NCBI GenBank assembly: GCA_000002445.1
Contig: CH464492.1
Span: 32,001 to 96,000, forward strand
Source of the DNA: Trypanosoma brucei
Lineage: Eukaryota
Reading direction: 5' to 3'
Length of the DNA: 64,000 bases
Part shown: one piece after another, positions 6,541 through 57,236 of the stretch
Layout of the letters: each line of letters opens with the position of its first letter
Position numbering within the stretch: position 1 is the stretch's first letter
The notes under the pieces: model-generated
Databases searched by the model: none
What the model was told of the DNA's origin: nothing
What the model saw: the letters and a program-made list of their open reading frames with translations, nothing else
Position numbers and translations under genes: made by a program

Positions 6541-6590
6541 CATAACACTTTCATCTCATTATTATTATTTATTATTATTATTACCCTAAC
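6541..6590 (-). repeat. Possible minimal 70-bp-repeat remnant (a TAA-triplet run) upstream of the VSG at 3492-4911
   Basis: cattattattatttattattattattaccctaac. It has triplet runs only, with no GTGTGAG core. Confidence 0.3.
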
Positions 6591-6823
6591 TAATATTTAC
6601 TAAAAGAAATCTGATAAACAAAATTAGGGTACCGCTAAATTTTCATACCATATCACCTTACTATATTACAGCCATAGGCTATTTTTATACCATAATTTAG
6701 TATTTTCTAAATCTGTACATTTCGCAAGGTTTTACAAAATTATTAAAACATATCGAAATTTACCAATTTTAACAAAATATCAAATTTTTATAGAGTTTGA
6801 AAAACATCTTTATAATGCTAAAA

Positions 6824-10389: not shown

Positions 10390-11852
10390 GGCGAATTTTT
10401 GTTTACTAGAATAGAAGAATCTTTGCAAGTTTCGCCCTACAACTTACAATCTGGAGATTTGCAGTCATCCTTTTCCTTATCTTTGCATTTCTCCTCTTTC
10501 TTTTCTTCTGCTTTCATTCCCTCTTTGAGTTTGCATTTTCCTTCTTTGTGTTCTCAATCTGGGTCTGCTGTTCATTTACTTTGTTCTGTGTCTTCTTTGC
10601 ATTTTTCTGTAGTTTTTGATTCTGTAGTGGTCTTAGGTTTAGCTTGTTGTTGTCTGCTGTTTTCTTTCCAGAAAACAACTGCTATTGCTTCACCAAAATT
10701 TGCAGTTTTAGAGACTCCTACTATGTCTGGGTTGCCGTTTGTGGAGCCCACATTGCACGTTATTTTGTCATTTTTTAAGGGTTCAATGAACTCCTTGTTG
10801 ATATCGCTTGTATCTGGTCCGTATACTTCCGTTATTGCGGCTACCCAGTCCCCGTCTATTGCCGTTAGAGGTATCGATCCCTTCGTGAGAAGGAATGCTA
10901 TCTTCGCTGCCGGTGACCCTTTGGCTATTTGCTTGCGCGTCAGACTTGCTGCTTTCGCCTCTGGTTTTATCAGGACTTTTTTGGCTTCGCACACCTTGTT
11001 TAACAGTGTCTTTTCTGAAATTACTAGTTTAAGCGGCTGGTCGTTGACGACGCAGCTCGTGTCGTCCGGTCCTGTCTTTCCTAGTGCTTGTTTGGCTGGC
11101 TGCGTTATTGCCGCCGGGGATTGACTAGGCTTTGCTCCTACACCGTGAGTCACTGACCCTTTCGTTTCCGCGTTTGCTCCACAGTATCCGGCTTGCTTAG
11201 CGCCGGCTGTACTGACGCTCCGGCGCTGCTCTGCATGTGGATGTCAAATGAAAGCTGCATGGGTTTGAGTTCACTGTTTGGCGTTAGTGCTAGGTGCTTT
11301 AGTTCCGCTATTTCAGTGCTGANNNNNNNNNNNNNNNNNNNNNNNNNNNNNNNNNNNNNNNNNNNNNNNNNNNNNNNNNNNNNNNNNNNNNNNNNNNNNN
11401 NNNNNNNNNNNNNNNNNNNNNNTCGACTTGGGGCGACCATTGAGCAGCTGGCCCAGTACGCCGTTCCGTTTTTGCAGCGCTTCAATTGCAGCCTCTATTG
11501 TGCTTGCTTTTTCTTTCAAGACTTCCTGCTGTTTGATTGCCGTCGTCGCTGCTATTGCGCTGAGGGCTGTGTACAGCAGCTTCCTCTTACTGTCGTGTGT
11601 TGCTGTGGCCGCGAGAAAAAACATGCGCGTCTCAGTGTTGAGGTCCGAAAGACGCTGTTGGGATTCTTGGACATTTATCCTTAAGTGTTCGGCCAATTTC
11701 TTGTTAAAATAGATTTCGGCGCATGTGGTTTTGACCGCTGCTAGGCTTCCGGGGTCTGCTGGTTGCGCAGTTGCGAGGGTATCTAGAAGAAACACCACCA
11801 TTATAGCAGCGATTCTTCTCTTTGGTTCGTGCATCTGCATTCGCCTCCTCAT
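10390..11852 (-). pseudogene. VSG: VSG (signal peptide and B-type-like N-domain) interrupted by a 100-N scaffold gap. It has overlapping frames and a degenerate GPI signal.
   Basis: ORFs 11313-11852 (MRRRMQMHEPKRRIAAIMVVFLLDTLATAQPADP…), 11150-11485 and 10572-11153. The terminus …FYSSKQKFALIVSEFKM resembles DSSILVNKQFALSVVS. Confidence 0.7.
11323..11422. other. Scaffold gap (100 N)
   Basis: Run of n characters. Confidence 1.
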
Positions 11853-12449: not shown

Positions 12450-12549
12450 NNNNNNNNNNNNNNNNNNNNNNNNNNNNNNNNNNNNNNNNNNNNNNNNNNN
12501 NNNNNNNNNNNNNNNNNNNNNNNNNNNNNNNNNNNNNNNNNNNNNNNNN
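12450..12549. other. Scaffold gap (100 N). It may hide the 70-bp repeats of the 10390-11852 cassette.
   Basis: Run of n characters. Confidence 1.
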
Positions 12550-12715
12550 CCACTATCATAATAATTTCATATTTCCTATTCTAAATTTTTCCAATTTCTA
12601 CGTTTGTAAAGTTTTATAAAAGTGTCAAGATATATAAATTTAGAAAGCGTTAGCATATTTTTCAAAATAGCAAGTTTCATAAATTTTATAAAATAAGCAA
12701 AAAATCTTTGAAATT

Positions 12716-16024: not shown

Positions 16025-16190
16025 GTTATAATAATAATAATAATAAGAGAGTGTTGTGAGTGTGTGTATACAAATATTATAATAATAATATTAATAATAA
16101 TAGTAATAATGATAATGATAATAGGAGAGTGTTGTGAGTGTGCATAAACTGATATTATAATGAGAGCAGTAATAATACTGAATGGATGGG
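16025..16190 (+). repeat. 70-bp repeats (about 2 units) in plus orientation, the 5' boundary of the cassette containing the intact VSG at 18282-19883
   Basis: ataataataataataagagagtgttgtgagtgtgtgtatac…gataataggagagtgttgtgagtgtgcataaactgatattataatgagagcagtaataatactg. Confidence 0.9.
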
Positions 16191-18281: not shown

Positions 18282-19883
18282 GTGGAAAAGCAGTTAGCAA
18301 GTCGACAGTTGCGTATTCGGATGACCCCAACACCTAAAGCAACGGCGGAACTACAGCGCATCTTGATTCTATACATCGGTGTGCTGTTCTTTGGCCTCAA
18401 CCTAGTAGAGGCCGCCACCGACGCCAACGCCGCACAACACCGCGTGATGTGTCTTCTCACCGCACTAGCCAACACCCCCATCAAGCAAGCAGAAATAACA
18501 GGCAGTGGCGGTTCCGCAAGAGAGACAATCAGTGCGTTGAACGTAACAACGAGCTCAAGCGAGTGGCAAAAAATCTTTGACACCAGTCTCAGCCGGGAAG
18601 CAGGCACAAACTTCCCAGAGACGCTCAAAGACAAGCCGTACGCAGACATCTGGAAAGCGAACTGGGCGTCATGGTGGAAAGCAGCAAAGCATGCCAAAAA
18701 CACTAACATTGGCCAGCCAACACACGACCTATACAAGCCCATCTCATCAGCAATACAAAAAGCAGCCGCAAACAAGAAGATACGGCAACTAGCACTACAA
18801 GCAGAAACCTTAGGTCGAATGTACGACGAAGCGGCGCAACAGGCAACAAGTACCCAAAAGCAACTAGCGCAAACAAAATTAACAGCAGCGCTGTACGGAG
18901 GCGACGGCAGCAAAGCAACACCAGGAACAGACCACACCCGCAAAGCATTTACAACCTGGGACGCCGCATGCACAGGAGACGAAAATGGCAAATCAATCGT
19001 AGGCGACTTTTTCTGCCTTTGTGCCCCAAAAGACGGGACAACGAAAGAATGTGCTGATGGTTACGCCCCGACGCGCTGGGACGCCACCATAGCAGACCCA
19101 GCGGCGGAGTGGAAAAAGCTACAGACGTCTTGCCCAACTGCTAAGCTCAGCAGCGCCAAAGAGCATGATATAAGAATGGCCATAGGAGCGTTCCTACAAG
19201 CCTTGACTACCAGAACTCAAGGCGGCACAACAAAAACTTACCTAGGGAGCAGCGACACAGGCGCATGCGACGGGACAAGCAGCAAGCTATGCGTCGATTA
19301 CACCGGCTACTTCAGCAAGCAAGCAGGTAAAACCTACAAAGATATACCATGGCTCAAATCCCTCGAAGATGCGGTTACGGCCCTAGAAAACATGCACAAG
19401 CAGGAAGAAAAAGCAAATAACCTCGACGCGCAGCTGGCAAACCTGCTGAAACAAGCCAATCTTATCTACGCCGCTGCATTAAACGGCGACTTGATGACCG
19501 AGACAGCGGTCAAAGCCGAAGTTGTTCCTGAAGGGAACCCAAGACAAAATGTAAACTGCGCGCAGCATGACAACAACAAAACTTGCGTTTCTCCATGCAA
19601 GTGGGAATCTAAAGGCGACAAAGGAACATGCAAATTAGATGAAAGCAAAGTTACAACTCAGACAAATACAGAAAGAACAGGAACAGGAGATGGCGCAGCA
19701 AAACATGGAGTAAATTGCTCTAGCCATGCAACCAAGGAGGCATGCGAGGGATTCCAAGGAACTTCAGTCCCAGGCAAAAAAGCTGTTTGTGGCTGGATTG
19801 AAGGCAAATGTCAGGATTCCAGTTTTCTTGTAAACAAAAAATTCGCCCTCATGGTTTCTGCATTTGTGGCCATGCTTTTCTAA
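18282..19883 (+). CDS. VSG: Intact VSG (533 aa) with a signal peptide, N-domain, C-domain and canonical 23-aa GPI signal
   Basis: …MTPTPKATAELQRILILYIGVLFFGLNLVEAATDANAAQH…CGWIEGKCQDSSFLVNKKFALMVSAFVAMLF*. The 16-mer lies 37 bp downstream. Confidence 0.92.
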   Translation: MEKQLASRQLRIRMTPTPKATAELQRILILYIGVLFFGLNLVEAATDANAAQHRVMCLLTALANTPIKQAEITGSGGSARETISALNVTTSSSEWQKIFDTSLSREAGTNFPETLKDKPYADIWKANWASWWKAAKHAKNTNIGQPTHDLYKPISSAIQKAAANKKIRQLALQAETLGRMYDEAAQQATSTQKQLAQTKLTAALYGGDGSKATPGTDHTRKAFTTWDAACTGDENGKSIVGDFFCLCAPKDGTTKECADGYAPTRWDATIADPAAEWKKLQTSCPTAKLSSAKEHDIRMAIGAFLQALTTRTQGGTTKTYLGSSDTGACDGTSSKLCVDYTGYFSKQAGKTYKDIPWLKSLEDAVTALENMHKQEEKANNLDAQLANLLKQANLIYAAALNGDLMTETAVKAEVVPEGNPRQNVNCAQHDNNKTCVSPCKWESKGDKGTCKLDESKVTTQTNTERTGTGDGAAKHGVNCSSHATKEACEGFQGTSVPGKKAVCGWIEGKCQDSSFLVNKKFALMVSAFVAMLF

Positions 19884-19919
19884 AAGAATTTCCCTTCTTT
19901 TTAAAATAATTTTGCTGTT

Positions 19920-19935
19920 TGATATATTTTAACAC
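19920..19935 (+). promoter_or_regulatory. VSG 3'-UTR conserved 16-mer TGATATATTTTAACAC
   Basis: Exact match. Confidence 0.9.
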
Positions 19936-20039
19936 GTAAGTTACCTGGAAAAGTAATTAAATTTTTTGTCCCGGCTCCGCGTATAAAAATTTTTGCCGAC
20001 TAAAAATTTCTCCTTTTTTCTGTTGTTTTTTGTTTAAAA

Positions 20040-20300
20040 AACAAAAAGAAGGTAGGAGGAATGAAGGTAGGTTGGAGTTAGGGTTAGGGTTATTTTTTCT
20101 CTTAGCAATAAGTGTTTTTACCAGCACTTAACCGTAACGACTTTAGCTCTTTTTTTTAATCATGCGAGTCGCTCTTTTTTAATGCAACCCTAACCCTTAT
20201 TCTTCCACTCCCCCCCCCAACGCCCAACTCCGCTTAACTTTTTCACCTGCACCTTCGCCCGTATTTGTAACTTTTTTCTGCTTCTGTGGATTTCAGCTCT
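20040..20300. repeat. Small palindrome: VSG 3' flank, then GGTTGGAGTTAGGGTTAGGGTTA, about 80 bp of centre, then AACCCTAACCCTTA and an inverted degenerate flank
   Basis: TTAGGG x2 at 20076-20092 on the plus strand. The inverted CCCTAA x2 is at 20186-20199. CACCTGCAC and TTTGTAAC…TTTTCTGCTTCTG after 20220 resemble the reverse complement of the telomeric VSG 3' flank. Confidence 0.65.
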
Positions 20301-21180
20301 GCATTTTGAGCTGCGCGCGGTATCAATTTTTTTTAAAGCTGGAGCGCGGCCTATAACACCGCACGCAATTCTTTTACGCCGCCTCGCTGCAGTATCGGTG
20401 CGCCAAACAATTTTTGTTTTCAAAAAGAAAATAAAGGAAGGGGAAAATATTTGTGAGATGGCAATTATAAAGAGCAGAAATTAAGGAGCGATTAGACAAT
20501 CTGCTGCTGGCACCCAACGGCCAAAGACGATAAACTGCCAGAGGTACGTTTTTAACCCCTAAGCCGTCGAGGATAAAATGTGCACATTGAGTGAGAGAAA
20601 TCAAGAAGATAGAACAAAAAGAAGCGCGAACAGATGGAGACAAAAAAGAGAACTATTATTTTTTTTGAAATTTTCTTCGTGACTTCGTGAGAGTTTCTCC
20701 CCACTGGCGAGTCCATCAGCCATAACCGTAGAGCCATGAGATGCTATCGGTCTGGCGACTGTGGCAGAGTCTCCCTTTTTTATTCAGCCTAACACACCCT
20801 CTATAATTTTTTGTTGTAGCTCCGCAGTTGGACGGAATACAGCAGATGGAGCAGAAAGCCCCCCACCCCTGACTCTCCAAAAGATGTCAATTAACAGTCC
20901 TTTTGTTTTGATTTTTGTTATTCGTTTATTATTCTCTCCTCTTTCTCTTTCTGTTTTTGTTGCTTGTTGACAGCATACCCTCTCTGTCTCTGAGGGTGTC
21001 TGGACTATTCCTGCGTCCGGTGCTTTTCCTGCTGGCTCCACACTCGGCAATAAGGGGGGAAGCTGCAGAATGGAGAGTGGGTTGTATGACTGTTACATTA
21101 GGTGAGGACTTCACCTGCGGCCGGCTCCGTTCAACCGCAATAAGAAACTGCGCCAGCCTTTTAGAGAAACATATATCCTG

Positions 21181-24100
21181 CACACACACACTCACCTTCT
21201 ACCGCAAACCTAACACGTAACTCCTTCAAACCGGGACAGCTCATCAAGTGCAGCGACGTTTCTTCGCAGTCGCCGCGTTGGCTGGTAACAGCGCACTCTA
21301 CCTTCATACCTTGCATCTTCTTTTGATGTAGGGTGAGGCCAGTTTTGCTAGCACACTGCCTTCCGCATGTCGGGCATACCAACATGGATGTGTTTGTATG
21401 CGGGGAATCAGTGGCAAGCAATTTTGTGCTTTTGCTGCATTTAAGCTCGACTCCCTCACCTTTGTGGAAAGCCTTACAGTGTCGGATGAGGGAGTCCCTG
21501 CAACTGAGCATTTTTTGGCACACACCACACTGCACCTCGCCCTTCCCCGGGACGTCAACGTTTCCCTCACGGGCACGCTTACGAGGGAATTGCACCACCA
21601 CCACGGTACCGTCCTCCGTCACTATGCTCTTATGTTTGAATTTCTTGTGTAGTGACAGGGAAGAACGTGTACCGAAGCTCGCCTCGCACAGGTCACATTG
21701 AAACGGCAGCTTCCGTGTATCCTGAGAGGCTGGCGCTGCTGGGGCTCTACCATCTCCTTGCACTGAGTCCTCGTTCTCTCTCCCCCTTTTCACGCGGCAA
21801 CTACCGCTGCCTATGCCATGTATTGTTCTAAGGTGGTGTAATAGTCGGCCTAGCACTGCGAATATGGAGGCACAGATGGTACAATGAAGCACCTGCAGTC
21901 TCATCGGGACTCGTGTGCTCGATGGTAGAGGAACGATCGCCACCGCTGGAGGGGGCTCCGGGGGGATGTCCACTGCAGGTGTTGCATCGCCGTATTTGAT
22001 CCTCCGGAGGGCATCAGCTCGCACAAAGCCATGTTTGTTTACCATATGCGTTACAGCACTCGAGCGGCATTGGTATGTGGCATCACATTCCGTATATTAG
22101 GTCGGTTCGGAGGTTCTCTGAAGAGTGCGTGTCGCAACAGTTGGGGATGTTTGTATTGTGGGTCCTATTGCTTCATGTTTCGGGTTACACCATCGGCACT
22201 GTGGAGGCACACTCGGGTTGATATTTCGCAACATCCATCCATAGTGTCTTGAAGAACCAACCCGAAAGCGTGCCAGTGCCGTTTCTTCTTCCCTCGTCAG
22301 TTCTTCATTATGTTTTGTTGGAAAGTGGTTGCCCGTGATACCAAACCTATGAGTGTTCTCATGGACTTCTTCCGACCTAAGCACTCGCTTCGCATAAGCA
22401 ATGATGTCGGGGACCCATGTGTCTCGCAACTGTGGTAAATCAGCGGCCTTTTTGGCCATTTCATCGCAAACCTCATTCCGTTTCACGCCACAATGGCCAA
22501 ACAAAAATTGCAGTCGGATACGTATCTTCCTTCTCTGAACTTGAAGCAGAAGCCTCCATAGTCGTCTCAGAATTGGGTCCGTTACGGCTAGGGGGCCTGT
22601 CTGCAATGCTGTTAACATTGACAGCGAGTCAGAGAAGATGGACAACCTGCTCGGTGTGCTTCTGTATGCCGGAACCCATTTCAGCAGCCGTTGCAGTCCT
22701 ATCTCTAATGCTACGCATTCCGCTCTGTAACTTCATGAGAGTTCCCCTGCTCCGGTCTTGGGTGCGCAAATCAGCGTGTTGTTTCTATAGAGCAGGGCAG
22801 CTGCTCCGAACTTCTCACCGAGGGACAAAGATCCATCAGTCCACAATTCGTAGTGCTCTCGTCGCGGTGGCTCCTTCCCCCTCCGTGCAAAATGCCGTTC
22901 AATCCACTTTTCGGAAGCCTCCCTTTTGACATTGTTAGAGTCATCAGCGCACACAGGCTTTATCTGCGTGTGAAATAGCGGTCGGCAGCTGTGGCGGAGC
23001 GTCGATGTCTCTAGTGGGTTTTCGCGTGGCTCAATGCGGAGGTGAAGGTAGGACCGCATGATGCGGGAATGTGTGGCTCTGACTGGGTGTTTGCTGTGAT
23101 ATGCTTCCTCAGCACTGCGCCGCAAACATCCGCCTCGTGACTCACACATCAGCATGAATTTCATGCTGCGCACAAGAGTGGTCGTCTTGAGTGGCAGGAG
23201 GTTTGCTTCCAGCAGACAGTCCTCTTTGCTCGTCCCATGTGGTATGCCAGCTATGATGCGACTGACCTTGTGTTGCGCTGCTGCAAGGAGGTCGCGACTT
23301 CGTTCCGAAGCGTCCCAGTACCATACCTCAATGCCATACATGGTGTGTGCCTGTACGAGTGCTAGATAAAAAGCTCTCAGTACTTGTCGTCTTGGCCCCC
23401 ATGTAGAAGCTGAGATGGCTGCTATCTGCAGTAGTAGGAAGTCCATCTTGCGTCTCGTTTCTGCCGCATGTGTTGCCATCCCTTGCAGACACTGGAATGT
23501 TACTCCTAGAAGCTTCGGTGTCCTGTCAGCTCCTATTCTTTCGCCGTCCATTGTAATGTAAGGGGGTGGCGCTCTATACACCCGAAGAGTGTGCACTTCG
23601 TTTTCGCTACGTTGACAGACATGAAGTACTCTTTTGACCACTGTAACACCACGTTTAGGCCGCATTACAGCGTGTGGTTGATGACATCCCTCTCTGTGTG
23701 CCTCGCAAGTAGCGTCAGGTCATCTGCAAAGAATCCGTGCTGCAGTAACGGCACTTCTGCAAGGCGCTGGCTCAACGAGTTCATGACAATAATGAACATG
23801 ATTGGGCCAAGGACAGTTCCTTGTGGCACTCCTCGCTCAAATGTTCTGCTGCTGGAAAGCTTCTCCTTGAATCTCACTCTGCCAGTTCGGTTACTCAGAA
23901 ATGATACACACCACTTCACAATGTGGGGTGATACCTTCATTCTGTGCATTTCCCTCGCAATTTTGTCGTGGTCTACTGTATCGAATGCCTTCTCTTAGTC
24001 GACGAATACAGCACCTGTACGATATTGGTGCGTGGGACGGCAGAGGGCAGCGCGGACGTGCAGGAGGTGTTCGAGCGTTGAGCATCCGGGGCGAAAGCCT

Positions 24101-25917
24101 GATTGCTGCGGCGTCAGCTGGGACTCAACAGTGTCTCTAAGTCTCGCGGCAATTATTCGCTCCATGACTTTGCAGAGACAGCTCGTGAGCGTCACTGGCC
24201 TGTAAGAATCGAGGTCCTCCGCCTTTTTTCCGGCCTTCAGGATGGGGATGATAACACCAGTCTTCCATGCAGACGGCACGACTCCCGTTCGTAGGCTCTC
24301 ATTGAATAGCCTCAGAACAACATTCAGCGCTGTTCTACCGAGATGTTGCAGTGCCTTGTTGTATAAGCAATCAGGTCCGGCTGCGGATCCACTCGGTAGC
24401 AGTTTGATCGATCTCCGTAGTTCAGCCATCGTGATGGGACTGAACTCACTCGCTATCGTCTTTATGTGTGCCGGTGGGTGTGAGTCGGGGTGCCTTCTTG
24501 CGCAAGACGAGTACAGTTTAATGAACCTCTCAGCTTGACGGTAGTCCGTGATGGCCGCGTTATCAACAAGCACAGCCGGTGTGGTTAGTGGTCGTGGCGC
24601 ATATACCTTCTTGACAATGTGCCAACTGCAGCGGTCTGACACCGCAAGTCTGGAGCATAGCGTGCTCCATCTCTTCTTTGTGGTACGGTCCAGAATCTGC
24701 TTACGCGTGGCTACCAACTTTTCTCTTATGTGGAAAGGTCCTCATCCAGCGATCTCTTCATCGAGTTTCGCGAGCTCAGGTGTCCAATGTGGTGGCGTTA
24801 CTCTGCAGCCACGGGGGACGGAGACATTCGTCGCAGTGCGGATGGCGGAGCTCAATTTCTGTTCCAGAGTGTTGACATTCTTCTCTCTACCAATTTTCCT
24901 GCAGAGCTCGTGAACCTTGAGACGGAAATTCCTCCAGTTAGCTTTTAGCCATGCGTACATGGGCTTTTGAAGCCGCGGGCAACTCAGTGCATCTGTGTCG
25001 TCTCCAACGATATCGTCGAAAAATATGTTATGGTGATCGCTATCGGGAGAATACAGCGATGTCCACGTGTACACTGTGCAATTCCTTGACAGTGTCACAT
25101 CAGGGGTGGACTCCTCGTGGTGGCGCGTGTACCTGGTGCACTCACCAGTGTTACATACCAGAAACTGGTTGTCAATGCACCACTGTGTGAGGGTTTCACC
25201 CTTGGTATTTGGTGGGCTCGCGCGATCCCATGCCAACGCGTGTGCGTTAGCGTCTGCACCGATGAGCTTGGCACCGTCAGTTGTCAGAAGCGTATCTAGG
25301 TCAGTTGCCGTGAAGGTGTGTTTTGGTGGGATGTATGCCGACGTGACAGTCAGCGCCGTTCCACGTGCAAGGTGAATTGTTGCATGCACTTGTTCAATGC
25401 GACCAACAACGGTCATACCAGTCTCGACTAGCAGGTTCTCCATCACTAGTATTGATACACCACCTCCTTTGCAGTTACGAGCTATTCTGTGATGTCGGTA
25501 GCCAGCAACGCTAAAGCAAACCACCTCTCCAGGCGTCATCCTTGTCTCGCTCAACAGACAAAAGACAATCCGCTCATCAACAAGGGTTTTGTGGAGTGCT
25601 AATCTCTTTTCTTGAGATAGCCCAGCGCAGTTCCACTGCATCCCGCGCAACGACAGGCCGGGATTCTCTTCCACATCACCGGACAGCAGCATGTTAGTGC
25701 GGATGATATTGCTGATGGCACGCTGGCACATGCCCAGGGACCGACAAATGAAAAACGGTGTCCCAGCAAGACGCTGCTGATCCCTGTGCTGTATAATGCC
25801 TTGGCCGGAGCACAGCATTGTTCCCCATGAAAGGAACGTTGGTGGCTCTTGGCTTCCCCCGATGATACGGGGTACTGGACCCTGGCACCACGTTGATGTT
25901 GCCGGCATCGCCAGGGG
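21181..25917 (-). mobile_element. ingi retrotransposon copy 2, about 4.74 kb. It runs from the 5' signature to a (CA)n-ended 3' boundary, and its ORF is broken into 5 or more pieces.
   Basis: 5' signature at 25849-25917 (minus strand). ORFs along the minus strand are APE (24742-25956, with the 2A-like DVEENPGL), RT (23995-24717; 23665-23949; 22733-23665), RNase H (22097-22645; FGHCGVKRNEVCDEMAKKA) and C2H2 zinc fingers (21161-22045). Colinear with copy 3. Confidence 0.9.
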
Positions 25918-26455
25918 ACGAATTTGAAACCACCCTGAGCGTGACACATTACTCAAATGGAAAATTTAAAGTAGACGGTAACGCTATGACAAAAACAGCC
26001 AAACTCTATCTCACAAGTCAGAAAGGTCAAAACAAGAAAAGACACAACCATGCACGACTTTCTCTGCCCTTTCAGTACAACACAACGGCAGATAGCGACC
26101 AAGTTATTAAATATGGCAAAAATATCTGGCACAACCGCGAAACAAAAGCGCGCATGGAACTGATTAACAGCATAAAATTCTTTCTAAAAGTAATCGCTGG
26201 ACGCAAAACTGGCAATAAACAGCCTCAATACGCCCTCTAACGGAATTCTTACAGCACCTAAAAAGGACAACTACAGGCGAAAAGGCGGCCCCAAATAGCT
26301 GAAAAGTGCAACTCGTTCAGGCCTTAAACCACAAAGAAAGCCATTCTAAATCCATAGGACCAGCGGCTTTTCAGATGAAGCCGAGACCACAAGACAACAC
26401 TGCCTTCACCGCCTGTAAGTTGTAATGCCTCAAGACAAGCCTGATATTTTCTTAA

Positions 26456-27992
26456 ATGCCACCGAAGTTAGAGATGCAGAGCAAGAAACTACGTAGACTA
26501 GCTATAGACCTAACACTAGCGCTAATTGCAGTGACTGGGACAGCAATAGGCTCGGCACCAGACGACAGTGCATATTTCTCTGCACTTTCTGCAGTTTACA
26601 ACCTTGCCGAAGTCAAAGACAAAATCGCGCCAGAGACGGCTTTCCCAGAAGCAACTACGATTCTAGAAGAGGCAAGCAACCTAAACCTATCAACAGCAAA
26701 CGACGGTTATTTTGATGCTGCGGATGACATTTATCACCAAGGCGGCAAAGTCAAAGATCAAGAAGGGCTTAAGCAATGGTAAGAAAAAAATAAAGCTATA
26801 GCGGACAAAGACCTGGCCGGCCAGAAGCCGTATCTAAGGTTGCCAGAACACAATGCACGGCACCGAGCAAACAAGAGAATTTACACGCTATTAAACAGGA
26901 GCGCGGAGCTGATAACGCAATATAACGCAGCTAAGCAAGCCTACAATGAGGCGAGAACAAATGCGATGAACAGCCTCACAGAAGCAGTCTATGGAAAAGG
27001 CAAAGTGGACTTCGACAAGGGCAGATTCAACAACGAAGCGGGCGCCGGGAGGGGTAAGGCATGCGGGGCGACGGCGCAGGGAGGAAACAATGTAGGAGCA
27101 GCGCTAGCCGACGCTTGTATTTGTCTTTGTACAGCTTCAGGAAACCCAGCGCAAAACGAGTGTGCGGACTCGCTGACTGGCCAGGTTGACGCAGCCGGCG
27201 ACAAAAGCGATCAAGCAAAGGCAGCATGGGACAACGTCAAAACAAAATGCAAATATATGCCGCAGCCACAGCCCAGCTAATGGCAAAGATCGACGCAAGC
27301 AACACGGACGCAACGCAAGCAACACGGACGCAACGCAAGCAAACGGGCGGTGAACTCTAGAAAAAACTAACACCGCAGCTTGCGCAGGCGTCCAGGCAAC
27401 ACCCACCATGTGCATAAACTTCAAACAACAGCTCGGCACAAGCGACGGAAAGCTACCATGGCTAGAAAAGCTACACGAAGCAGAAAACCAACTGATGACA
27501 GCCGCATGAAAAGAGAGCGAAGCAGCAGCTCTCAAGCAAACCCTTATGCAGCTAAATAATGACGCCCGGGCTTCTTACGTCGACGCACAACACGAAATTG
27601 AAAACCCACCAAAGCTTACGCAACTTCACCCACAATCCCCCGCCAAAACAACCAATGAAGAGGACTGTAAAAAACACAAATAAAGCGGCAAATGCGCTGA
27701 GCCGTGCCAAAGGGGTGACAATGCCACTGGTGCAAACAAAAAATGCTCATTAGATCCAAAAAAGCTGCAGATCAAGCAGCTCAGGTATAAAAAGAAACAT
27801 GAGAGCAACCTTCAAAGTATGCTGGACAAGATACCAAAGAGAAATGTGAAGGAGTCAAATGAACTCCAGCCCCAGGCAAAAAATATGTTTGTGGACGGAT
27901 AGAAGACAAGTGCAAAGATTACAGTTTTCTAGTAAATAAGAAATTTGCCCTGATTGTTGCTTCTGCTTTTGTGAGTTTGGTAGGACTCTAGC
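26456..27992 (+). pseudogene. VSG: VSG pseudogene (signal peptide, B-type N-domain, C-domain and GPI signal) with multiple frameshifts or stops
   Basis: ORFs 26456-26782 (MPPKLEMQSKKLRRLAIDLTLALIAVTGTA…) and 26840-27280 (…GKACGATAQGG…DACICLCTASG…). The terminus …PGKKYVCGRIEDKCKDYSFLVNKKFALIVASAFVSLVGL* is found by hand translation. There is a 21-bp tandem duplication at 27295-27336. Confidence 0.8.
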
Positions 27993-37102: not shown

Positions 37103-38527
37103 ATGTCACGGCAATCAACGCAACGCGCTGTAGCAGCCGCACTGACGCTGCTTCTAGGCTCCGTAGAGGCGGCCCAAGATGCAAATGCAAAAGAACACAG
37201 CATACTGTGCAGGCTGCTGTCCGTGGCGGCAATAGAGCCAGAACCAAAAACATTGTCACCAGATGCAAGCGCGCTAGTAGCGACACTGGAGGAATTAAAC
37301 TTCTCAAACAGCGACGCCAACTGGACATCAAACTTCGATTTTGCCGCAATGACCGCCAAACCAGATGAATTGCCTCAAAAATTTAGGAAAGCACCGTATC
37401 CCCCAATGTGGACAACGATGTGGCCGAAATGGTACGCCGCAGGCAAACGGGCCGGCGAGGCTAAGGTCGGCACCGCTAGAAACAGCGATTACCCAGCCAT
37501 AAACGACGGGAGGCAAAAAAAACAGGCTCACAGTCAAATATCCGCGCTTCTTGACAGGGCGCTTTCATTGAAATCAAAGATAGACAACCTCAAAGGAGCG
37601 GACGGCACGTTCGGCATGACCACAGTAAGATCCCACCTTCAAGCAGCGGCCTACGGCAAGCCAGAGGCCAACAAGCCGACAACGCCAGACGGCATCCACG
37701 CACTGGCCAACTGGGACTCGGCATGCGGCAAATCAAACGTGGGCAAAAGCCTAGCAAGCGACATGATGTGCCTTTGCCACGGTACAGGTGTAACACCGCA
37801 AGACTGCGGGCTGACTGTAACGGCTGTCCAGTGGAACGCAGCCAAAACCATCGATGAGCCGTGGAATCCACTCAAAACATCTTGCCCATGCGGCAAACCA
37901 GGCGAACTGACAGACGCAGTAGTTGAAGCGGCAGTGACGGACTTTACAAGGGCCCTGAAGGAAACCTCCACCGGTGGCGAAAAAGTGCTACACTTCGGCG
38001 ATAACTCCGGCACAGGGTGCAATGGAGCAGACACCAAACTTTGCATAGATTACAGCGACTTCTTCAAAAAAGGAGGCGATAGCGGAGTAAGCAAGATAAA
38101 GTGGGCAGCCGAGCTTCGGCTGGCAGCAGGGCTAGCAAAGCAGACCGAAACCAGGCTGCAGCAAGCGCAGACACTGGCCCTGCTTGTAGAAGCACTCAGC
38201 GAGGAAGCAAAAAGCGTTTATACAGCTGCCGCCCAAAACAGGTTAGTGCCACCAGCTGAAGCGGAACACCAAGCGGATGCCAGCAGGCACCGTGATCAGA
38301 CGCAGGGCATTACCGGCGAAAAAAAGCAAGAAATTACATGCCAGGAGGAAAATAACAAGGATAAAAGCAACAGCAAGGCCGGATGCAAATATAATGACAA
38401 AGATAGAAAATGCGAGGAAGATCCTGCAAAAGCTACAGCAACAGCAGCACCAAACACAAACAGCACAGGAGACAATTCTTTTCTCATTAACAAGGCCCCT
38501 CTTTGGCTTGCATTTTTGCTTCTATAA
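37103..38527 (+). CDS. VSG: Intact VSG (474 aa) with a 17-aa-type GPI signal
   Basis: MSRQSTQRAVAAALTLLLGSVEAAQDANAKEH…MMCLCHGTGVT…NSFLINKAPLWLAFLLL*. An exact 16-mer lies downstream. Confidence 0.92.
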   Translation: MSRQSTQRAVAAALTLLLGSVEAAQDANAKEHSILCRLLSVAAIEPEPKTLSPDASALVATLEELNFSNSDANWTSNFDFAAMTAKPDELPQKFRKAPYPPMWTTMWPKWYAAGKRAGEAKVGTARNSDYPAINDGRQKKQAHSQISALLDRALSLKSKIDNLKGADGTFGMTTVRSHLQAAAYGKPEANKPTTPDGIHALANWDSACGKSNVGKSLASDMMCLCHGTGVTPQDCGLTVTAVQWNAAKTIDEPWNPLKTSCPCGKPGELTDAVVEAAVTDFTRALKETSTGGEKVLHFGDNSGTGCNGADTKLCIDYSDFFKKGGDSGVSKIKWAAELRLAAGLAKQTETRLQQAQTLALLVEALSEEAKSVYTAAAQNRLVPPAEAEHQADASRHRDQTQGITGEKKQEITCQEENNKDKSNSKAGCKYNDKDRKCEEDPAKATATAAPNTNSTGDNSFLINKAPLWLAFLLL

Positions 38528-38549
38528 AACTTTTAGGATTTTTGCTGTT

Positions 38550-38565
38550 TGATATATTTTAACAC
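38550..38565 (+). promoter_or_regulatory. VSG 3'-UTR 16-mer TGATATATTTTAACAC
   Basis: Exact match. Confidence 0.9.
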
Positions 38566-38696
38566 CTAAATTCACCGAAAAAATTGAACTGTATTTGTAA
38601 AAAATTCTGAGTCTGTAAAAATTTTTGCTTTTCTGATACCTAAAATTTTTTTCCTTTTCCCGTTGAATTTTTTTATTTTGTGCAGGTAGGTGGGTG

Positions 38697-38795
38697 ATTA
38701 GTTAGGTTAGTTAGGGAGGGTTTCCCTACTTAGGCTTAGGATTAGGATTAGGCTTAGGGTTAGGATTAGGATTAGGGTTATTCGGTTAGGGTTAA
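38697..38795 (+). repeat. Degenerate telomere-like repeats in G-strand orientation (TTAGGG, TTAGGC, TTAGGA variants)
   Basis: ttaggttagttagggagggtttccctacttaggcttaggattaggattaggcttagggttaggattaggattagggtta…ggttagggtta. Confidence 0.85.
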
Positions 38796-38848
38796 TTTTC
38801 CTCTCTTCCTGCTAATTAATTTTCTCATTCCAGTTTTTCTAGTCTTTT

Positions 38849-38975
38849 AGTGATGCAGCGGCTCCATTTTTTTTACACCACTTTGCTGTTTTTATTTTTT
38901 TAAAAGTGATGCAGCAGCTTTTTTGTTATGCGAACCCTAACCCTCAACACCTTAACCCGAACCCGAAACTTAGGC
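38849..38975 (+). repeat. Left copies of the nested inverted-repeat motif AGTGATGCAGC(G/A)GCT…TTATGCGAACCCTAACCCTC
   Basis: 38849-38865 agtgatgcagcggctcc. 38906-38975 agtgatgcagcagcttttttgttatgcgaaccctaaccctcaacaccttaacccgaacccgaaac. Confidence 0.8.
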
Positions 38976-38979
38976 GCTC

Positions 38980-39700
38980 GTGTGGCTAAAAAAAATGTGT
39001 GTCGCAAAAAAAAGTGGGGGGTTGCAAAAAAAAAGAAGTTAAAGAAAAAAATGCAAAATCTAACCCGGAGTTCGAAATTTAAAAATCTCAAAACTCTCAA
39101 AAACTTTAAAATCTAAAAATCTAAAAAACGATAATTTAAAAAAATAAAGATTTAAAAAGAACCGAAAAAATCCAAACAGAAAAAAGGAAAAAAGCGAAAA
39201 AAAATAAAGCAAAAAGATGAATTAAAAAAATATGAGCTAAAAAAGCCGAAATAAAAAAATAATGCCGCGACAGGGAACAAAAAAATCAAAAATAACAAAT
39301 TAAAATTCAAAAATTCGGAAAATTTTAAAAAAAATGAAAAAATTTTTTAAAAAACCAAAAACCTCGCAAAATCCGAAAACTAAAAAAAAGGATTAGAAAA
39401 AATTTTTTAAATCTAAAAACATTGAAAACAAAAAAACTGCGGTGACAAAAAAAACGAAAAACCAAGAAGGCAAAAAAGAGTCACTGGTGGGGTGCAAAAA
39501 ATATATAAATTCAAATTTAAAAAGTCGCAAAATTTAAAAAATAAAATCATGCAAAAAAAAGAAGGGTAAAAAAGGGTTGCTGAAAGACGCGCTAAAAAAA
39601 ATTCGCGCACTCCCAAAAAACGTAAAAATGTAAAAAAAAATGCAATGTCGCGACGGGGATCAAAATATTTTTATAAATTTAAAGATTGGATATGCGTGCG
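38980..39700. repeat. A-rich, low-complexity spacer on the top strand with degenerate internal repeats (…GTCGCGACGGGG…, …GCAAAAAAAAG…)
   Basis: Visual inspection. Only low-complexity ORFs occur here. Confidence 0.7.
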
Positions 39701-39701
39701 C

Positions 39702-39759
39702 GGGGGAGTGGGGGGGAGGAGGGTTAGGGTCCGCATAATAAAGGAGCCGCTGCATCACT
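39702..39759 (-). repeat. Right inverted copy of the motif (reverse complement: TTTTTTTAGTGATGCAGCGGCTCCTTTATTATGCGGACCCTAACCCTCC)
   Basis: gggggagtgggggggaggagggttagggtccgcataataaaggagccgctgcatcacta. Confidence 0.8.
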
Positions 39760-39970
39760 AAAAAAATACAAATTTTTAAAAATCGAAAAACTCAAGAAAA
39801 AAAACAAAAATTAAAAAAGGTTTAAAAAACTTTAAAAAAACTTTAAAAAATTTAAAAAAACGCTGGCGCAAAGAAAAAAGAGCCTGTGCATTACTGTGGA
39901 GCCAAAAACAAAATTATTGGAGCAATTAAGGACGCAGCTGCGGGGTAAAAAAGAAAAAGGAAAAAAGTAA

Positions 39971-40146
39971 CCCTAACCGAATAACCCTAACCCTAACCCT
40001 AACCCTAACCCGCTAACCCGAAACACCCTAACCCTAACCCGCTAACCCGAAACACCCTAACCCTAACCCGCTAACCCGAAACACCCTAACCCTAACCCGC
40101 TAACCCGAAACACCCTAACCCTAAGCCTAAGCCTACCTAACCCCCC
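39971..40146 (-). repeat. Telomere repeats with the C-strand (CCCTAA)n on top. They include 4 units of a 29-bp higher-order repeat, CCCGCTAACCCGAAACACCCTAACCCTAA, at 40009-40124.
   Basis: ccctaaccctaaccctaaccctaa, then 4x29 bp, then ccctaagcctaagcctacctaa. Confidence 0.9.
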
Positions 40147-40311
40147 TCCACCTACCTAACTACCCCCCCCCCATTCCTACCTAGGTACCTACAAAAACTC
40201 TAAAAAAACGGGAAAAGAAGGAAAAAAATTTTATTCGCCAGAAAAACAAATGTTTTTACAGAATCAAATATTTTTACAAACAATCAACAAAAAACACTCA
40301 GCTGATTTTAG

Positions 40312-40327
40312 GTGTTAAAATATATCA
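40312..40327 (-). promoter_or_regulatory. VSG 3'-UTR 16-mer on the minus strand
   Basis: gtgttaaaatatatca is the reverse complement of TGATATATTTTAACAC. Confidence 0.9.
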
Positions 40328-40371
40328 GAAGTTTTCAAGTAGCAAGGAAAATTTTAAAAAGAGGGAGGGAA

Positions 40372-41928
40372 TTAAAAAAGCAAGGCCACAAATGCAGCAG
40401 AAACCACGCTGAGGGCGAATTGTTTGTTTACTAGAATAGAGGAATCACGGCAGTAAGGCTTTTCAAGTGTTCCTTTACCGTCCTCGTAAGTGATCCATCC
40501 GCAAACAGATTTTTTGCCAGGGGGAGCTGTTCCTTGCACGGCTTCGCATTTCTCCTTGCTTTCTATGCCAGTACATTTTGAAGTTTTCTCTCCTGTTCCT
40601 GTTGCTGGGTTTGTCTGCTCTGTAACTTTAGTTTCATCTGCTACGCACTTTCCATCTTTTTCTTCCCATTTGCAACCTTTTTCTTCACATGTCTCTTTTG
40701 GTTTGTGCTCCTTGCATTCTTCTTGTGCAACACTTGCTAATTTGTCGTTTGTTGGTTCACTGTCTTTTTTTGTGTTTGCTGAAAAACCAGCTTCATATAG
40801 GTGCCAAACACTTGGGTTCATTGTCGTTAGTGTGTTGATGGTGGCAGTAATGTCTGATTCGGTTGCTGCTGTTGGCGCTGCTTCGATTCCTTGTCGCACT
40901 TCTGTTTGCCAGCGGATCTCGCTGTTCCCTACCGTTTTTTGCCATGGTGCATAGTTGACGCAAATCTGTTTTGTTGTGCCGTCGCAGCCTGTTGCCGTCG
41001 CATCTGCCCAGCCGAGAATGTATTTGTTGTTTTGGGTTGGTGTTGTTTTGCTGTGAGTGTTTCCTCCAATTAGTGAGACGAGGCTGGTAAGCGCTGCCTG
41101 TAGAGCTGCTGCTGTGACTTTCGTTGGTGTTTGTGGGCACTCCGCCATCAAAGTATCCCAGCTTGTGTGTATTGTGCTATGCGGTGTGCGAAAGTTGTTT
41201 TGGTTTGTCGTTGTTCCGTGGGCAGCTGTTGCGCAGTTCTACATTCCCGTTTGTCCGTCGACACAAAGACAGACTAAGTCGTTAATTAACGTTTTGCCGA
41301 CATTGGTTGTTTGTTCGCTGCTGAATGGCACCGAGCCGCAGCTTGTTTCCCTTGTGTTTGAGCCGGTTCCGCCGAAAATGCTGGCGACGTTTCCCGCCGC
41401 AAAGAGGGTTGCTCTTGGTGTTAGTTCAGGAGGCTTTTCGTCTTTGCCACACACTGCTTTGAAAAGGTGTTTGTTTGCCGTGGCCGTGGCCGCTTCGACG
41501 GTTTTGATCTTGCTTTTCAGCGCCGATATCACCTCCGCTGCCGCCTGGGCCGTTTCATTTATTTGCTTCGCTGTGGCGATTCCTGCCGCAGTTTTTGGCA
41601 GCGCCTTGTATTCTTTGTTAAGTCCTTCTGTGCCTTCCTTTTCTCGTCTTTCTACCTCTGTTTTGTTGTCGTAAGCGATTATCTCCGCTCTCTGTATGTC
41701 GTTTTTTAGCTGCGTTACTTGCTCTGCAACTTTTATCTCTGTGCTGTCGAAGCCCTTAGAGGCCAGCCGAATTAAGTTACAGAGCGCTCCAAACTCTTGT
41801 GCGTTTTCAGCTTCTTGGTCAACGGTTGCGTCGACAATGGTCGCTGCGCGGAACATTATTGTGGCCGCTGTTGCCGCTAGGTACATGAGCGTGGTCATCT
41901 CTGTTGCTCTTTCTTTTTGAATGGACAT
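40372..41928 (-). pseudogene. VSG: Full-length VSG (signal peptide, N-domain, C-domain and canonical 23-aa GPI signal) interrupted by one in-frame TAG at 41236-41238
   Basis: ORFs 41239-41928 (MSIQKERATEMTTLMYLAATAATIMFRAATIVDA…LVCLCVDGQTGM*) and 40372-41151 share a frame, since both starts are divisible by 3. Hand translation across the junction gives …DGQTGM*NCATAAHGTTTNQNNFRTPHSTIHTSWDTLMAECPQ…. The end reads …DSSILVNKQFALSVVSAAFVALLF*. Confidence 0.85.
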
Positions 41929-42077
41929 GTACAGAAGGTTGCCTGTTGATCAGAAAGAAGGGGGTGCACCAAAATTTTGTGCCCCGTGGTCGTTTAGTGG
42001 TTTGTCATCAATGCTGTTTGCTTTCTGGGTTCAACAGCGAACGTTGAGCTGCTTTGTTGAAGGTTTTTAGGCAAAAA

Positions 42078-42150
42078 AGAGGGTGTTGTGAGTGTGTGTA
42101 TACGAATATTATAATAAGAGCAGTAATGATAGTAGTAATAATGATGATGA
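42078..42150 (+). repeat. Single 70-bp repeat unit in plus orientation
   Basis: aaaaaagagggtgttgtgagtgtgtgtatacgaatattataataagagcagtaatgatagtagtaataatgatgatgatgg. Confidence 0.85.
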
Positions 42151-57049: not shown

Positions 57050-57236
57050 ACTACCATAGTACGTTACCCTTATAGGCGACTATTAAACATGTTCTGCTAA
57101 AATTTTATTTTTTATAGCTTTTAAAAATGTTACAATCCCTCAATGGCTTTACACAATTTTAAAATATAAGAATTATTAATAATTTTTTGATAAACGTTAT
57201 AAATTTAAGAAAAAATTCTTTGAAAGTTAAAATTCT

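What the first reader, a model, noticed from the sequence alone, without database searches (positions are those of the whole stretch)
20040..20300. Second, smaller inverted telomere-repeat palindrome immediately 3' of the intact VSG at 18282-19883
After the VSG's exact 16-mer and 3' flank come GGTTGGAGTTAGGGTTAGGGTTA at 20070-20092 and about 85 bp of unique centre. These are followed by the inverted AACCCTAACCCTTA at 20186-20199 and a reverse-oriented degenerate copy of the telomeric VSG 3' flank (…CACCTGCAC…TTTGTAAC…TTTTCTGCTTCTG). It looks like a collapsed version of the 38528-40372 structure. It may be a healed fold-back at a formerly telomeric VSG, with an ingi inserted about 1 kb further on. 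Two independent inverted-telomere scars in one 64-kb window point to a recurrent process.
Basis: seen in the sequence. Interest (0 to 1): 0.62.

Follow-up and report, generated by a model that had tools for sequence, protein, structure and literature searches.

The report
Internalised telomere-type VSG end, inverted repeats
Just after an intact trypanosome coat-protein (VSG) gene lies a short relic of chromosome-end repeats facing a few inverted repeats; it is one of three related copies in this window, not a separate fold-back scar, so it is a modest point about how telomeric VSG genes end up inside arrays.

Summary
VSG_A (18321-19883) is 100% identical to an annotated T. b. brucei TREU927 VSG. 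It is followed by the exact 16-mer, a 112-nt telomere-type flank, a C-free G-rich tract (20048-20092), a 93-nt T-rich centre and AACCCTAACCCT with a C-rich tail (20186-20240).

There is no reverse-complement symmetry beyond the 17-nt hexamer pair. The claimed reversed VSG flank does not beat shuffles. No inverted VSG remnant is detectable, and the region has no unusual hairpin potential.

The centre is not unique. Its last 40 nt, hexamers excluded, find as their two best matches in the whole window the equivalent spots just 5' of the inner C-strand hexamers in each arm of the 38528-40372 structure. Site A is therefore homologous to one arm of that imperfect palindrome, not a collapsed copy of the whole.

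The best reading is three paralogous copies of one composite module: telomere-type VSG 3' end, interstitial G tract and conserved inverted junction, spread by duplication. They are not independent recurrent events. No external T. brucei DNA was reachable, so the genome-wide frequency is unknown. Interest is modest.

The parts
16028..16177 (+). 70-bp-type repeats (78-nt period, 1.9 copies); upstream boundary of the VSG_A cassette
   Evidence: Tandem Repeats Finder
18321..19883 (+). VSG_A, intact coding sequence (520 aa, real ATG at 18321)
   Evidence: Translation. 100% identical to an annotated T. b. brucei TREU927 VSG with Pfam VSG_B and Trypan_glycop_C.
19884..19935 (+). VSG 3' UTR ending in the exact 16-mer TGATATATTTTAACAC (19920-19935)
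   Evidence: UTR identity is 82% to B and 72% to C.
19936..20047 (+). Telomere-type VSG 3' flank (112 nt), homologous to the flanks of VSG_B and VSG_C
   Evidence: BLAST 19899-20091 against 38531-38722: 66%, E = 2e-15. Ordinary array VSGs in the window run instead into 70-bp-type repeats. A similar flank follows a T. equiperdum VSG.
20048..20092 (+). G-rich 'TTAGGG-like' transition followed by 2.7 perfect G-strand hexamers (20077-20092); 21 G, 0 C
   Evidence: TTAGGG-like repeats 3' of telomere-proximal VSGs are a known hallmark (PMC3708902, citing Aline and Stuart 1989).
20093..20185 (+). T-rich centre (93 nt). The 5' 40 nt has no detectable relative; the 3' 40 nt is conserved in arms B and C.
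   Evidence: Window-wide scan
20147..20198 (+). Conserved junction element (about 52 nt): T run, CATGCGAGTCGCTC, T run, AATGC, ACCCTAACCCT
   Evidence: 75% identical to B and 77% to C. BLAST 20151-20219 against 39766-39697: 75% over 71 nt, E = 2.5e-8. Top two hits of about 127,000 positions, z = 7.7 and 6.6.
20186..20240 (+). Inverted (C-strand) hexamers AACCCTAACCCT plus a degenerate C-rich tail (28 C, 2 G)
   Evidence: Inverted-repeat pairs I6 and I23.
38528..38975 (+). Paralogous arm B: UTR with exact 16-mer, flank, about 110 nt of G tract (38685-38794), about 138-nt T-rich centre, element, then ACCCTAACCCT with a 29-bp-repeat-like C-strand unit
39697..40371 (-). Paralogous arm C, read on the minus strand: UTR with exact 16-mer, flank, about 225 nt of G tract including 4.4 perfect 29-bp subtelomeric repeats, about 236-nt T-rich centre, element, ACCCTAACCCT and a C run
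   Evidence: Collinear with B at 65-84% identity (E down to 3e-33).

Best explanation
The site is the distal end of a telomere-type VSG cassette that now lies inside a subtelomeric array of T. b. brucei TREU927. The cassette runs from 70-bp repeats through VSG_A, the 16-mer, a conserved flank and a 'TTAGGG-like' transition to G-strand hexamers. It ends in a composite junction: a short interstitial G-strand tract, a T-rich spacer, and a conserved element of about 52 nt that runs into two inverted (C-strand) hexamers and a C-rich tail.

The same module forms each arm of the imperfect palindrome at 38528-40372. The three copies are paralogues of one ancestral structure.

Shown: the anatomy, the homology of the three copies, and the absence of palindromic arms at site A.

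Inferred:
(1) The ancestral structure arose once, from a rearrangement that placed a VSG-bearing chromosome end head-to-head against another telomere-derived tract.
(2) It then spread together with the VSG 3' flank by segmental or inverted duplication, or by gene conversion.
(3) VSG coding regions were later swapped within the cassettes, since the C-terminal domains of B and C differ.
(4) The G tract eroded in copy A to 2.7 hexamers.
(5) The relic has no dedicated function. It does leave VSG_A with telomere-type 3' homology (exact 16-mer, flank, TTAGGG seed) that could serve as the downstream end-point of gene conversion into an expression site.
For: Hexamers and composition.

Telomere-type flank. 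A, B and C share the exact 16-mer and a flank of about 115-120 nt leading into G-rich repeats, with identities of 61, 60 and 71%. The other VSGs in the window run into 70-bp-type repeats instead. TTAGGG-like repeats are a recognised mark of telomere-proximal VSGs (PMC3708902).

Homology of the non-telomeric junction. The 40 nt 5' of A's C-strand hexamers, hexamers excluded, hit the equivalent positions in C (z = 7.7) and B (z = 6.6) as ranks 1 and 2 of about 127,000 window positions. BLAST of 20151-20219 against 39766-39697 gives E = 2.5e-8. GTGATGCAGCGGCTCC is exact in B and C.

Co-divergence. Element identity is 83% for B-C, against 77% for A-C and 75% for A-B. This matches the flank order: 71% for B-C, against 61% for A-B and 60% for A-C.

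Left junction. In all three copies the G tract ends in GGGTTA followed by a T run (20068-20102 against 38767-38804, 79%).

B and C are collinear inverted arms.
Against: There are only three copies, all in one 64-kb window of one strain. No external T. brucei DNA could be reached.

The 5' part of A's centre has no detectable similarity to B or C. The centres differ in length (93, about 138 and about 236 nt). An independent junction of A to the same partner sequence is therefore not excluded.

A rank order from three taxa is weak evidence of co-divergence.

The nature of the ancestral event, and any role in recombination, is inference only.
Confidence: 0.6

Rival explanations
1. Recurrent independent capture. 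A, and B/C or their ancestor, were formed separately. Each time, a VSG-bearing telomere was joined to the same kind of partner sequence: a chromosome-end or repeat element X that carries the 52-nt element, C-strand hexamers and a C-rich tail. The shared sequence would then reflect a common partner, not common descent of the whole module.
For: The 5' 40 nt of A's centre finds nothing in B or C. Centre lengths differ (93, about 138 and about 236 nt). The G tracts differ greatly in length and repeat type. The sequence to the right of the C-strand hexamers is unrelated between A and B/C.
Against: The G tract ends GGGTTA followed by a T run in all three copies. Identities of the element and the flank rank the same way. 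B and C are collinear across the whole centre, so at least those two are en bloc copies. No free-standing copy of X is seen in the window.
Confidence: 0.2
2. A break at a formerly telomeric VSG_A was healed by fold-back priming, giving a small palindrome that has since decayed.
For: G-rich and C-rich tracts face each other across a 93-nt spacer. A 17-nt pair is 88% complementary. The spacing of about 720 nt from the C-strand hexamers to the ingi-like element resembles the 720-nt spacer of the B-C palindrome, so a partner arm could have been destroyed.
Against: There is no reverse-complement symmetry beyond the hexamers. The reverse complement of 20200-20460 and of 20440-20960 does not exceed shuffles against any VSG end. 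tblastn finds no VSG remnant in 20200-21000 (best E = 2.1). There are no telomere-like repeats on the far side of the ingi-like element at 25919-26460. The sequence next to the inverted hexamers is homologous to that of other loci, which a local fold-back does not predict.
Confidence: 0.05
3. Telomerase-mediated insertion of a short interstitial telomeric tract at a double-strand break, with the neighbouring C-strand motif copied from telomerase RNA, like the TERC-flanked interstitial telomeric sequences of rodents.
For: CCCTAACCCT equals 10 of the 11 nt of the T. brucei telomerase RNA template CCCUAACCCUA (PMC8643685). Such TERC-flanked tracts exist in vertebrates (PMC8537989; seen only in the listing, the paper was not read).
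Against: The eleventh template base, A, is T, C and C in the three copies. PMC4229120 gives the T. brucei template as 11 nt, where other kinetoplastids have 12 nt beginning with A; I take this to mean the preceding base is not A in T. brucei, whereas all three copies have A there. The orientation expected for run-on reverse transcription is the antisense of the RNA 5' region, not a sense template. There is no Rfam match. The T. brucei telomerase RNA sequence itself could not be obtained for a direct comparison.
Confidence: 0.02
4. Chance co-occurrence of hexamers, or an assembly artefact that joins unrelated reads through telomere repeats.
For: The window has two 100-N gaps (11323-11422 and 12450-12549), so the assembly is not finished everywhere.
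Against: The expected number of such 12-mers is 0.14 per window. The tract at A is only 23 nt, too short to mislead a clone-based assembly. The context is homologous to two other loci.
Confidence: 0.03

Closest known systems
Conserved 3' organisation of telomere-proximal VSG genes in T. brucei: 16-mer, flank, 'TTAGGG-like' repeats, 29-bp subtelomeric repeats, then (TTAGGG)n. Source: Aline and Stuart 1989, as cited in PMC3708902. The 29-bp repeats are attributed to Van der Ploeg 1984 and Blackburn and Challoner 1984 from my own knowledge.
   Same: Site A has the exact 16-mer, a homologous flank of about 112 nt, a C-free TTAGGG-like transition and perfect G-strand hexamers in the correct orientation. 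Arm C also has 4.4 perfect 29-bp repeats.
   Different: The tract is 2.7 hexamers long and internal, with at least 43 kb of chromosome beyond it. It is followed by a T-rich spacer and inverted hexamers, not a terminal telomere. In real expression sites the VSG-to-telomere distance is 200-1590 nt (PMC2567434). Whether the longer cases contain this module is unknown.
Head-to-head interstitial telomeric sequences left by telomere-telomere fusion (for example human 2q13), and interstitial telomere-repeat islands at the boundaries of subtelomeric duplication blocks (human subtelomeres; the internal TG1-3 tracts between yeast X and Y' elements). From my own knowledge.
   Same: A G-strand tract faces a C-strand tract inside a subtelomere, at the boundary of a duplicated cassette. 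The copies are propagated with the neighbouring block.
   Different: The two tracts do not abut; a non-telomeric spacer of 93 to about 236 nt separates them. Only the left side has recognisable subtelomeric (VSG) flank. The inverted side is only about 12 nt of true repeat plus a degenerate tail.
Fold-back inversions and palindromic duplications formed from hairpin-capped breaks, for example the inverted linear amplicons of Leishmania (references seen in PMC11739655).
   Same: Inverted orientation of short repeats near a fragile subtelomeric site. The neighbouring B-C structure is a true imperfect palindrome with a 720-nt spacer.
   Different: Site A has no reverse-complement arms, no inverted gene copy and no unusual hairpin stability.

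Membership tests
Telomere-proximal-type VSG 3' cassette | Intact VSG with a C-terminal domain and the conserved 16-mer in the 3' UTR | tested here: met
   520-aa ORF, 100% identical to an annotated TREU927 VSG with Pfam VSG_B and Trypan_glycop_C. The 16-mer is exact.
Telomere-proximal-type VSG 3' cassette | 3' flank homologous to flanks that lead into telomere-derived repeats, followed by 'TTAGGG-like' and TTAGGG repeats in G-strand orientation | tested here: met
   Flank is 61% identical to B and 60% to C; BLAST E = 2e-15. 20048-20092 has 21 G and 0 C and holds 2.7 perfect hexamers.
Telomere-proximal-type VSG 3' cassette | The repeat tract runs to the chromosome end | tested here: not met
   The tract ends at 20092 and the window continues for 43.9 kb with an ingi-like element and further VSGs.
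Head-to-head interstitial telomeric sequence (fusion relic) | A G-strand tract followed by a C-strand tract on the same strand | tested here: met
   20077-20092 (G strand) and 20186-20198 (C strand). The composition flips across the centre.
Head-to-head interstitial telomeric sequence (fusion relic) | The two tracts abut directly | tested here: not met
   A 93-nt T-rich non-telomeric centre separates them.
Head-to-head interstitial telomeric sequence (fusion relic) | Subtelomeric flank in opposite orientation on both sides | tested here: not met
   The left side qualifies. On the right, no reversed VSG flank, UTR or coding remnant is found.
Fold-back (inverted-duplication) palindrome | Arms that are reverse complements of each other beyond the short priming repeat | tested here: not met
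   Reverse-complement self-BLAST finds only a 17-nt pair plus A/T low complexity. Shuffle tests.
Fold-back (inverted-duplication) palindrome | Hairpin-forming potential above background | tested here: not met
   ssDNA minimum free energy is -19.7 kcal/mol against a shuffle mean of -17.1; z = -0.85.
Telomerase-RNA-flanked interstitial telomeric sequence | Sequence next to the repeats derives from telomerase RNA outside the template | tested here: inconclusive
   Only the template (CCCUAACCCUA) and one flanking base could be compared, using published text (PMC8643685, PMC4229120). Both flanking positions disagree.
Paralogous family with arms B and C of the 38528-40372 structure | Collinear homology of the UTR, flank, G tract and the non-telomeric element 5' of the inverted hexamers | tested here: met
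   The exception is the 5' half of the centre, which is not alignable for A.

The most novel reading that the evidence does not exclude
The 52-nt element with its C-strand hexamers is the end of a discrete, reusable partner sequence: a class of chromosome end or a mobile subtelomeric block. This partner repeatedly joins to VSG-bearing telomeres and so converts telomeric VSGs into internal array members. That would be a specific, sequence-marked mechanism for the growth of the VSG archive, and its copies would tag every such event genome-wide.
Probability: 0.12. Interest if true: 0.65.

Novelty: new member of a known kind. Interest (0 to 1): 0.3.

Why it matters
If the reading is right, at least three VSGs in this array still carry the full 3' signature of telomeric VSGs, and the distal edge of the unit that was moved or copied is marked by a recognisable junction element. 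That gives a simple sequence tag for asking, genome-wide, how often telomeric VSG cassettes have been internalised and duplicated. It also allows a test of whether array VSGs that keep telomere-type 3' homology are activated earlier or more often than ordinary array VSGs; the determinants of the VSG expression hierarchy are the subject of PMC12137147. Interstitial TTAGGG tracts could also attract telomere proteins or base J inside arrays. None of this was tested here. The finding does not support a recurrent fold-back process.

Tried and rejected
(1) External comparison failed. Exact-protein look-ups for VSG_A, VSG_B, a VSG at 43992 with a guessed start, and two TREU927 proteins found nothing on record. 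The only locus obtained was a 3.3-kb T. equiperdum contig that ends 60 nt after the 16-mer. Two further protein searches gave no hits with contigs.

(2) Inverted VSG remnant to the right of site A. By eye, the reverse complement of 20395-20560 looked like a VSG C-terminus plus UTR. tblastn and shuffle-controlled DNA alignments do not support this, so it was rejected.

(3) Homology between A's right side (20215-20900) and the 720-nt A-rich spacer of B-C. Only T or A runs matched.

(4) A centre-only local alignment with dinucleotide shuffles was not significant (29/200). The T-rich background inflates random scores. The position-specific window scan was the informative test.

(5) Telomerase-RNA retrocopy. 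The flanking bases disagree and the idea is unsupported.

(6) Rfam found nothing.

(7) Hairpin or cruciform potential: z = -0.85.

(8) A target-site duplication for the ingi-like element was not found.

(9) Nine full-text literature searches found no description of inverted interstitial telomere repeats in T. brucei VSG arrays. Marcello and Barry 2007 and Wickstead 2004 are not held.

(10) Other single hexamers in the window, for example at 6584-6632, lie in 70-bp-type repeat sequence and look like chance.

Full report
**What the window is.** VSG_A (ATG at 18321, stop at 19883, 520 aa) is 100% identical to an annotated variant surface glycoprotein of Trypanosoma brucei brucei TREU927 on a 286-kb contig. 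The window is a subtelomeric VSG array. It holds about ten VSG genes or pseudogenes on both strands, three ingi-like retroelement copies and two 100-N gaps.

**Checking the observation.**
- The VSG 16-mer at 19920-19935 is exact.
- Twelve-mers within one mismatch of TTAGGGTTAGGG occur 14 times in the window against 0.14 expected. They occur only here and at 38748-40130, so chance is excluded.
- The inverted telomere-like character is wider than the hexamers. 20048-20092 has 21 G and no C, and 20186-20240 has 28 C and 2 G.
- The centre is 93 nt (20093-20185).
- An ingi-like element follows about 1 kb later. Its core at 21183-25919, minus strand, is 96% identical to 52314-57051.

- Reverse-complement self-BLAST of 19880-20950 gives only the 17-nt hexamer pair (88%) and A/T low-complexity matches.
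- The proposed reversed VSG flank to the right of the C-strand hexamers does not beat dinucleotide shuffles against any of the three telomere-type flanks (32/300, 13/300 and 90/300). The same holds for 20440-20960 on either strand.
- tblastn with eleven ORF translations from the window (mostly VSGs) finds no coding remnant in 20200-21000 (best E = 2.1).
- There are no telomere-like repeats on the far side of the ingi-like element.
- As single-stranded DNA, 20040-20245 folds no better than shuffles (z = -0.85).

**What the site resembles.** Three VSGs in the window have an exact 16-mer followed by the same kind of 3' flank: A, B (37103-38527, plus strand) and C (40372-41928, minus strand, disrupted). 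The other VSGs run into 70-bp-type repeats instead.

In all three the order is:
- UTR
- a flank of about 115-120 nt
- a G-rich 'TTAGGG-like' transition
- a G-strand tract (A 45 nt, B about 110 nt, C about 225 nt with 4.4 perfect 29-bp subtelomeric repeats)
- a T-rich centre (93, about 138 and about 236 nt)
- a conserved stretch ending in ACCCTAACCCT
- C-rich or 29-bp-like C-strand sequence

'TTAGGG-like' repeats 3' of telomere-proximal VSGs are a recognised hallmark (PMC3708902, citing Aline and Stuart 1989). A T. equiperdum VSG contig shows the same 16-mer and flank start.

**The key test.** I took the 40 nt immediately 5' of A's C-strand hexamers, with the hexamers excluded, and scored them against every position on both strands of the window, about 127,000 positions. 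The two best non-self hits are the positions immediately 5' of the inner C-strand hexamers of arm C (39723-39766, z = 7.7) and arm B (38888-38931, z = 6.6). BLAST gives 20151-20219 against 39766-39697 at 75% over 71 nt, E = 2.5e-8. GTGATGCAGCGGCTCC is exact in B and C, and TTATGCGRACCCTAACCCT occurs only there. A simple local alignment of the centres alone was not significant, because T runs inflate the null. The positional scan is the appropriate control.

**Relation to the larger structure.** B and C are collinear inverted arms (38550-38794 against 40327-40058, E = 3e-33; 38705-38904 against 40068-39842; 38889-38945 against 39772-39719). They are separated by about 720 nt that is A-rich on the plus strand. 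Each arm carries its own short inner C-strand hexamers. Site A therefore corresponds to one arm, not to a collapsed version of the whole palindrome.

Pairwise identities rank the same way for the VSG flank and for the junction element.

| Pair | VSG flank | Junction element |
|---|---|---|
| B-C | 71% | 83% |
| A-B | 61% | 75% |
| A-C | 60% | 77% |

This is what en bloc descent predicts, although three taxa give it little weight. In all three copies the G tract ends in GGGTTA followed by a T run. The 5' 40 nt of A's centre has no detectable relative.

**Interpretation.** The most economical reading is that A, B and C are paralogous copies of one composite module. The module is a telomere-type VSG 3' end whose G-strand tract is interstitial and is followed, after a T-rich spacer, by a conserved element with inverted telomere and subtelomere repeats. 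In arm B the inner hexamers continue into a 29-bp-repeat-like C-strand unit, so they are truly telomere-derived.

These steps are inferences:
- The ancestral structure probably arose from a rearrangement that placed a VSG telomere head-to-head against another telomere-derived tract.
- It then spread with the flank by duplication, inverted duplication or gene conversion.
- VSG coding regions were exchanged afterwards, since B and C have different C-terminal types.
- A's G tract shrank to 2.7 hexamers.

The anatomy and the homology are shown.

The main rival is independent joining of different VSG telomeres to the same partner sequence. It is favoured by the unalignable 5' centre and by the different centre and tract lengths.

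The other readings are unlikely: fold-back, telomerase-RNA-templated insertion, chance and artefact. For the telomerase idea, the template is CCCUAACCCUA (PMC8643685) and both flanking bases disagree (PMC4229120).

**Function.** There is no evidence for a dedicated function, no RNA family match and no special structure. The plausible consequence is that VSG_A keeps telomere-type 3' homology for gene conversion into expression sites and carries an interstitial TTAGGG seed. This is untested.

**Limits.** No T. brucei genome could be searched with these tools. Every look-up of a TREU927 protein returned 'not on record', and the remaining protein searches gave no loci. The genome-wide frequency of the module, its presence at true telomeres (VSG-to-telomere distance is 200-1590 nt in expression sites, PMC2567434) and its conservation between strains are all unknown. 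Nine full-text searches found no description of such inverted interstitial repeats in VSG arrays, but key older papers are not held.

**Verdict.** The feature is real and the observation largely correct. The fold-back and 'independent recurrent scars' interpretations are not supported. It is an internalised telomere-type VSG end with a conserved inverted junction, one of three paralogues in the window. Interest is modest at 0.3. It is a new member of a known kind: interstitial telomere relics at the edges of subtelomeric duplication units.

Noticed in passing
window 38528-40372: This is a true imperfect palindrome. Arms B and C are collinear at 65-84% identity (E down to 3e-33) around a spacer of about 720 nt that is A-rich on the plus strand. 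The two VSGs have different C-terminal types, so the coding regions were probably exchanged after the inverted duplication. Each arm has its own short inner C-strand hexamers.
   Followed up: partly
window 39996-40124: There are 4.4 perfect copies of the 29-bp T. brucei subtelomeric repeat (ACCCTAACCCTAACCCGCTAACCCGAAAC), 100% matches, well inside the contig.
   Followed up: partly
window 11323-11422 and 12450-12549: Two runs of exactly 100 N (assembly gaps). The second lies just downstream of a minus-strand VSG pseudogene whose degenerate 16-mer is at 12622-12637.
   Followed up: no
window 21183-25919, 52314-57051 and 1-2909: Three ingi-like copies share only the roughly 4.7-kb core at 95-96% identity. 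Homology stops before the expected terminal (RIME-like) parts. No target-site duplication was found around the copy next to site A, and about 950 nt (20240-21183) between the junction and the ingi core remains of unknown origin.
   Followed up: partly
window 20027-20061 and 20411-20445: A direct repeat: TTTTTGTTTAAAAAACAAAAAGAAGGTAGGAGGAA against TTTTTGTTTTCAAAAAGAAAATAAAGGAAGGGGAA (74%). Only 1 of 300 shuffles reaches its score. It could be a second, direct remnant of the boundary between flank and transition. Not explained.
   Followed up: partly
window 20006-20062: An A/T-rich self-complementary stretch (TTTTTTGTTTAAAAAACAAAAA) inside the VSG_A 3' flank. It produced only weak, sub-threshold microRNA-like Rfam matches and is probably low complexity.
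   Followed up: no
window 40372-41928 (minus strand): VSG_C is split into two ORFs (40372-41151 and 41239-41928), so it is probably a pseudogene despite its perfect 16-mer and long telomere-type tract. No 70-bp-type repeat array was detected upstream of it in 41900-43950.
   Followed up: partly
L001 3140-3289 (T. equiperdum CZPT02001353.1): A T. equiperdum VSG that is 39% identical to VSG_A has the exact 16-mer and a flank start very like arm B (CCTAAATTC.CC.GAAAAAATTGA.CTGT). The contig ends about 60 nt after the 16-mer, consistent with collapse at repeats.
   Followed up: no
window 38926-38944 and 39720-39738 (minus strand): The conserved element contains an ATG (ATGCGRACCCTAACCC) that opens short ORFs beginning MRTLTL in B and C. 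In A the equivalent ATG meets a stop after three codons. They are most likely spurious.
   Followed up: no
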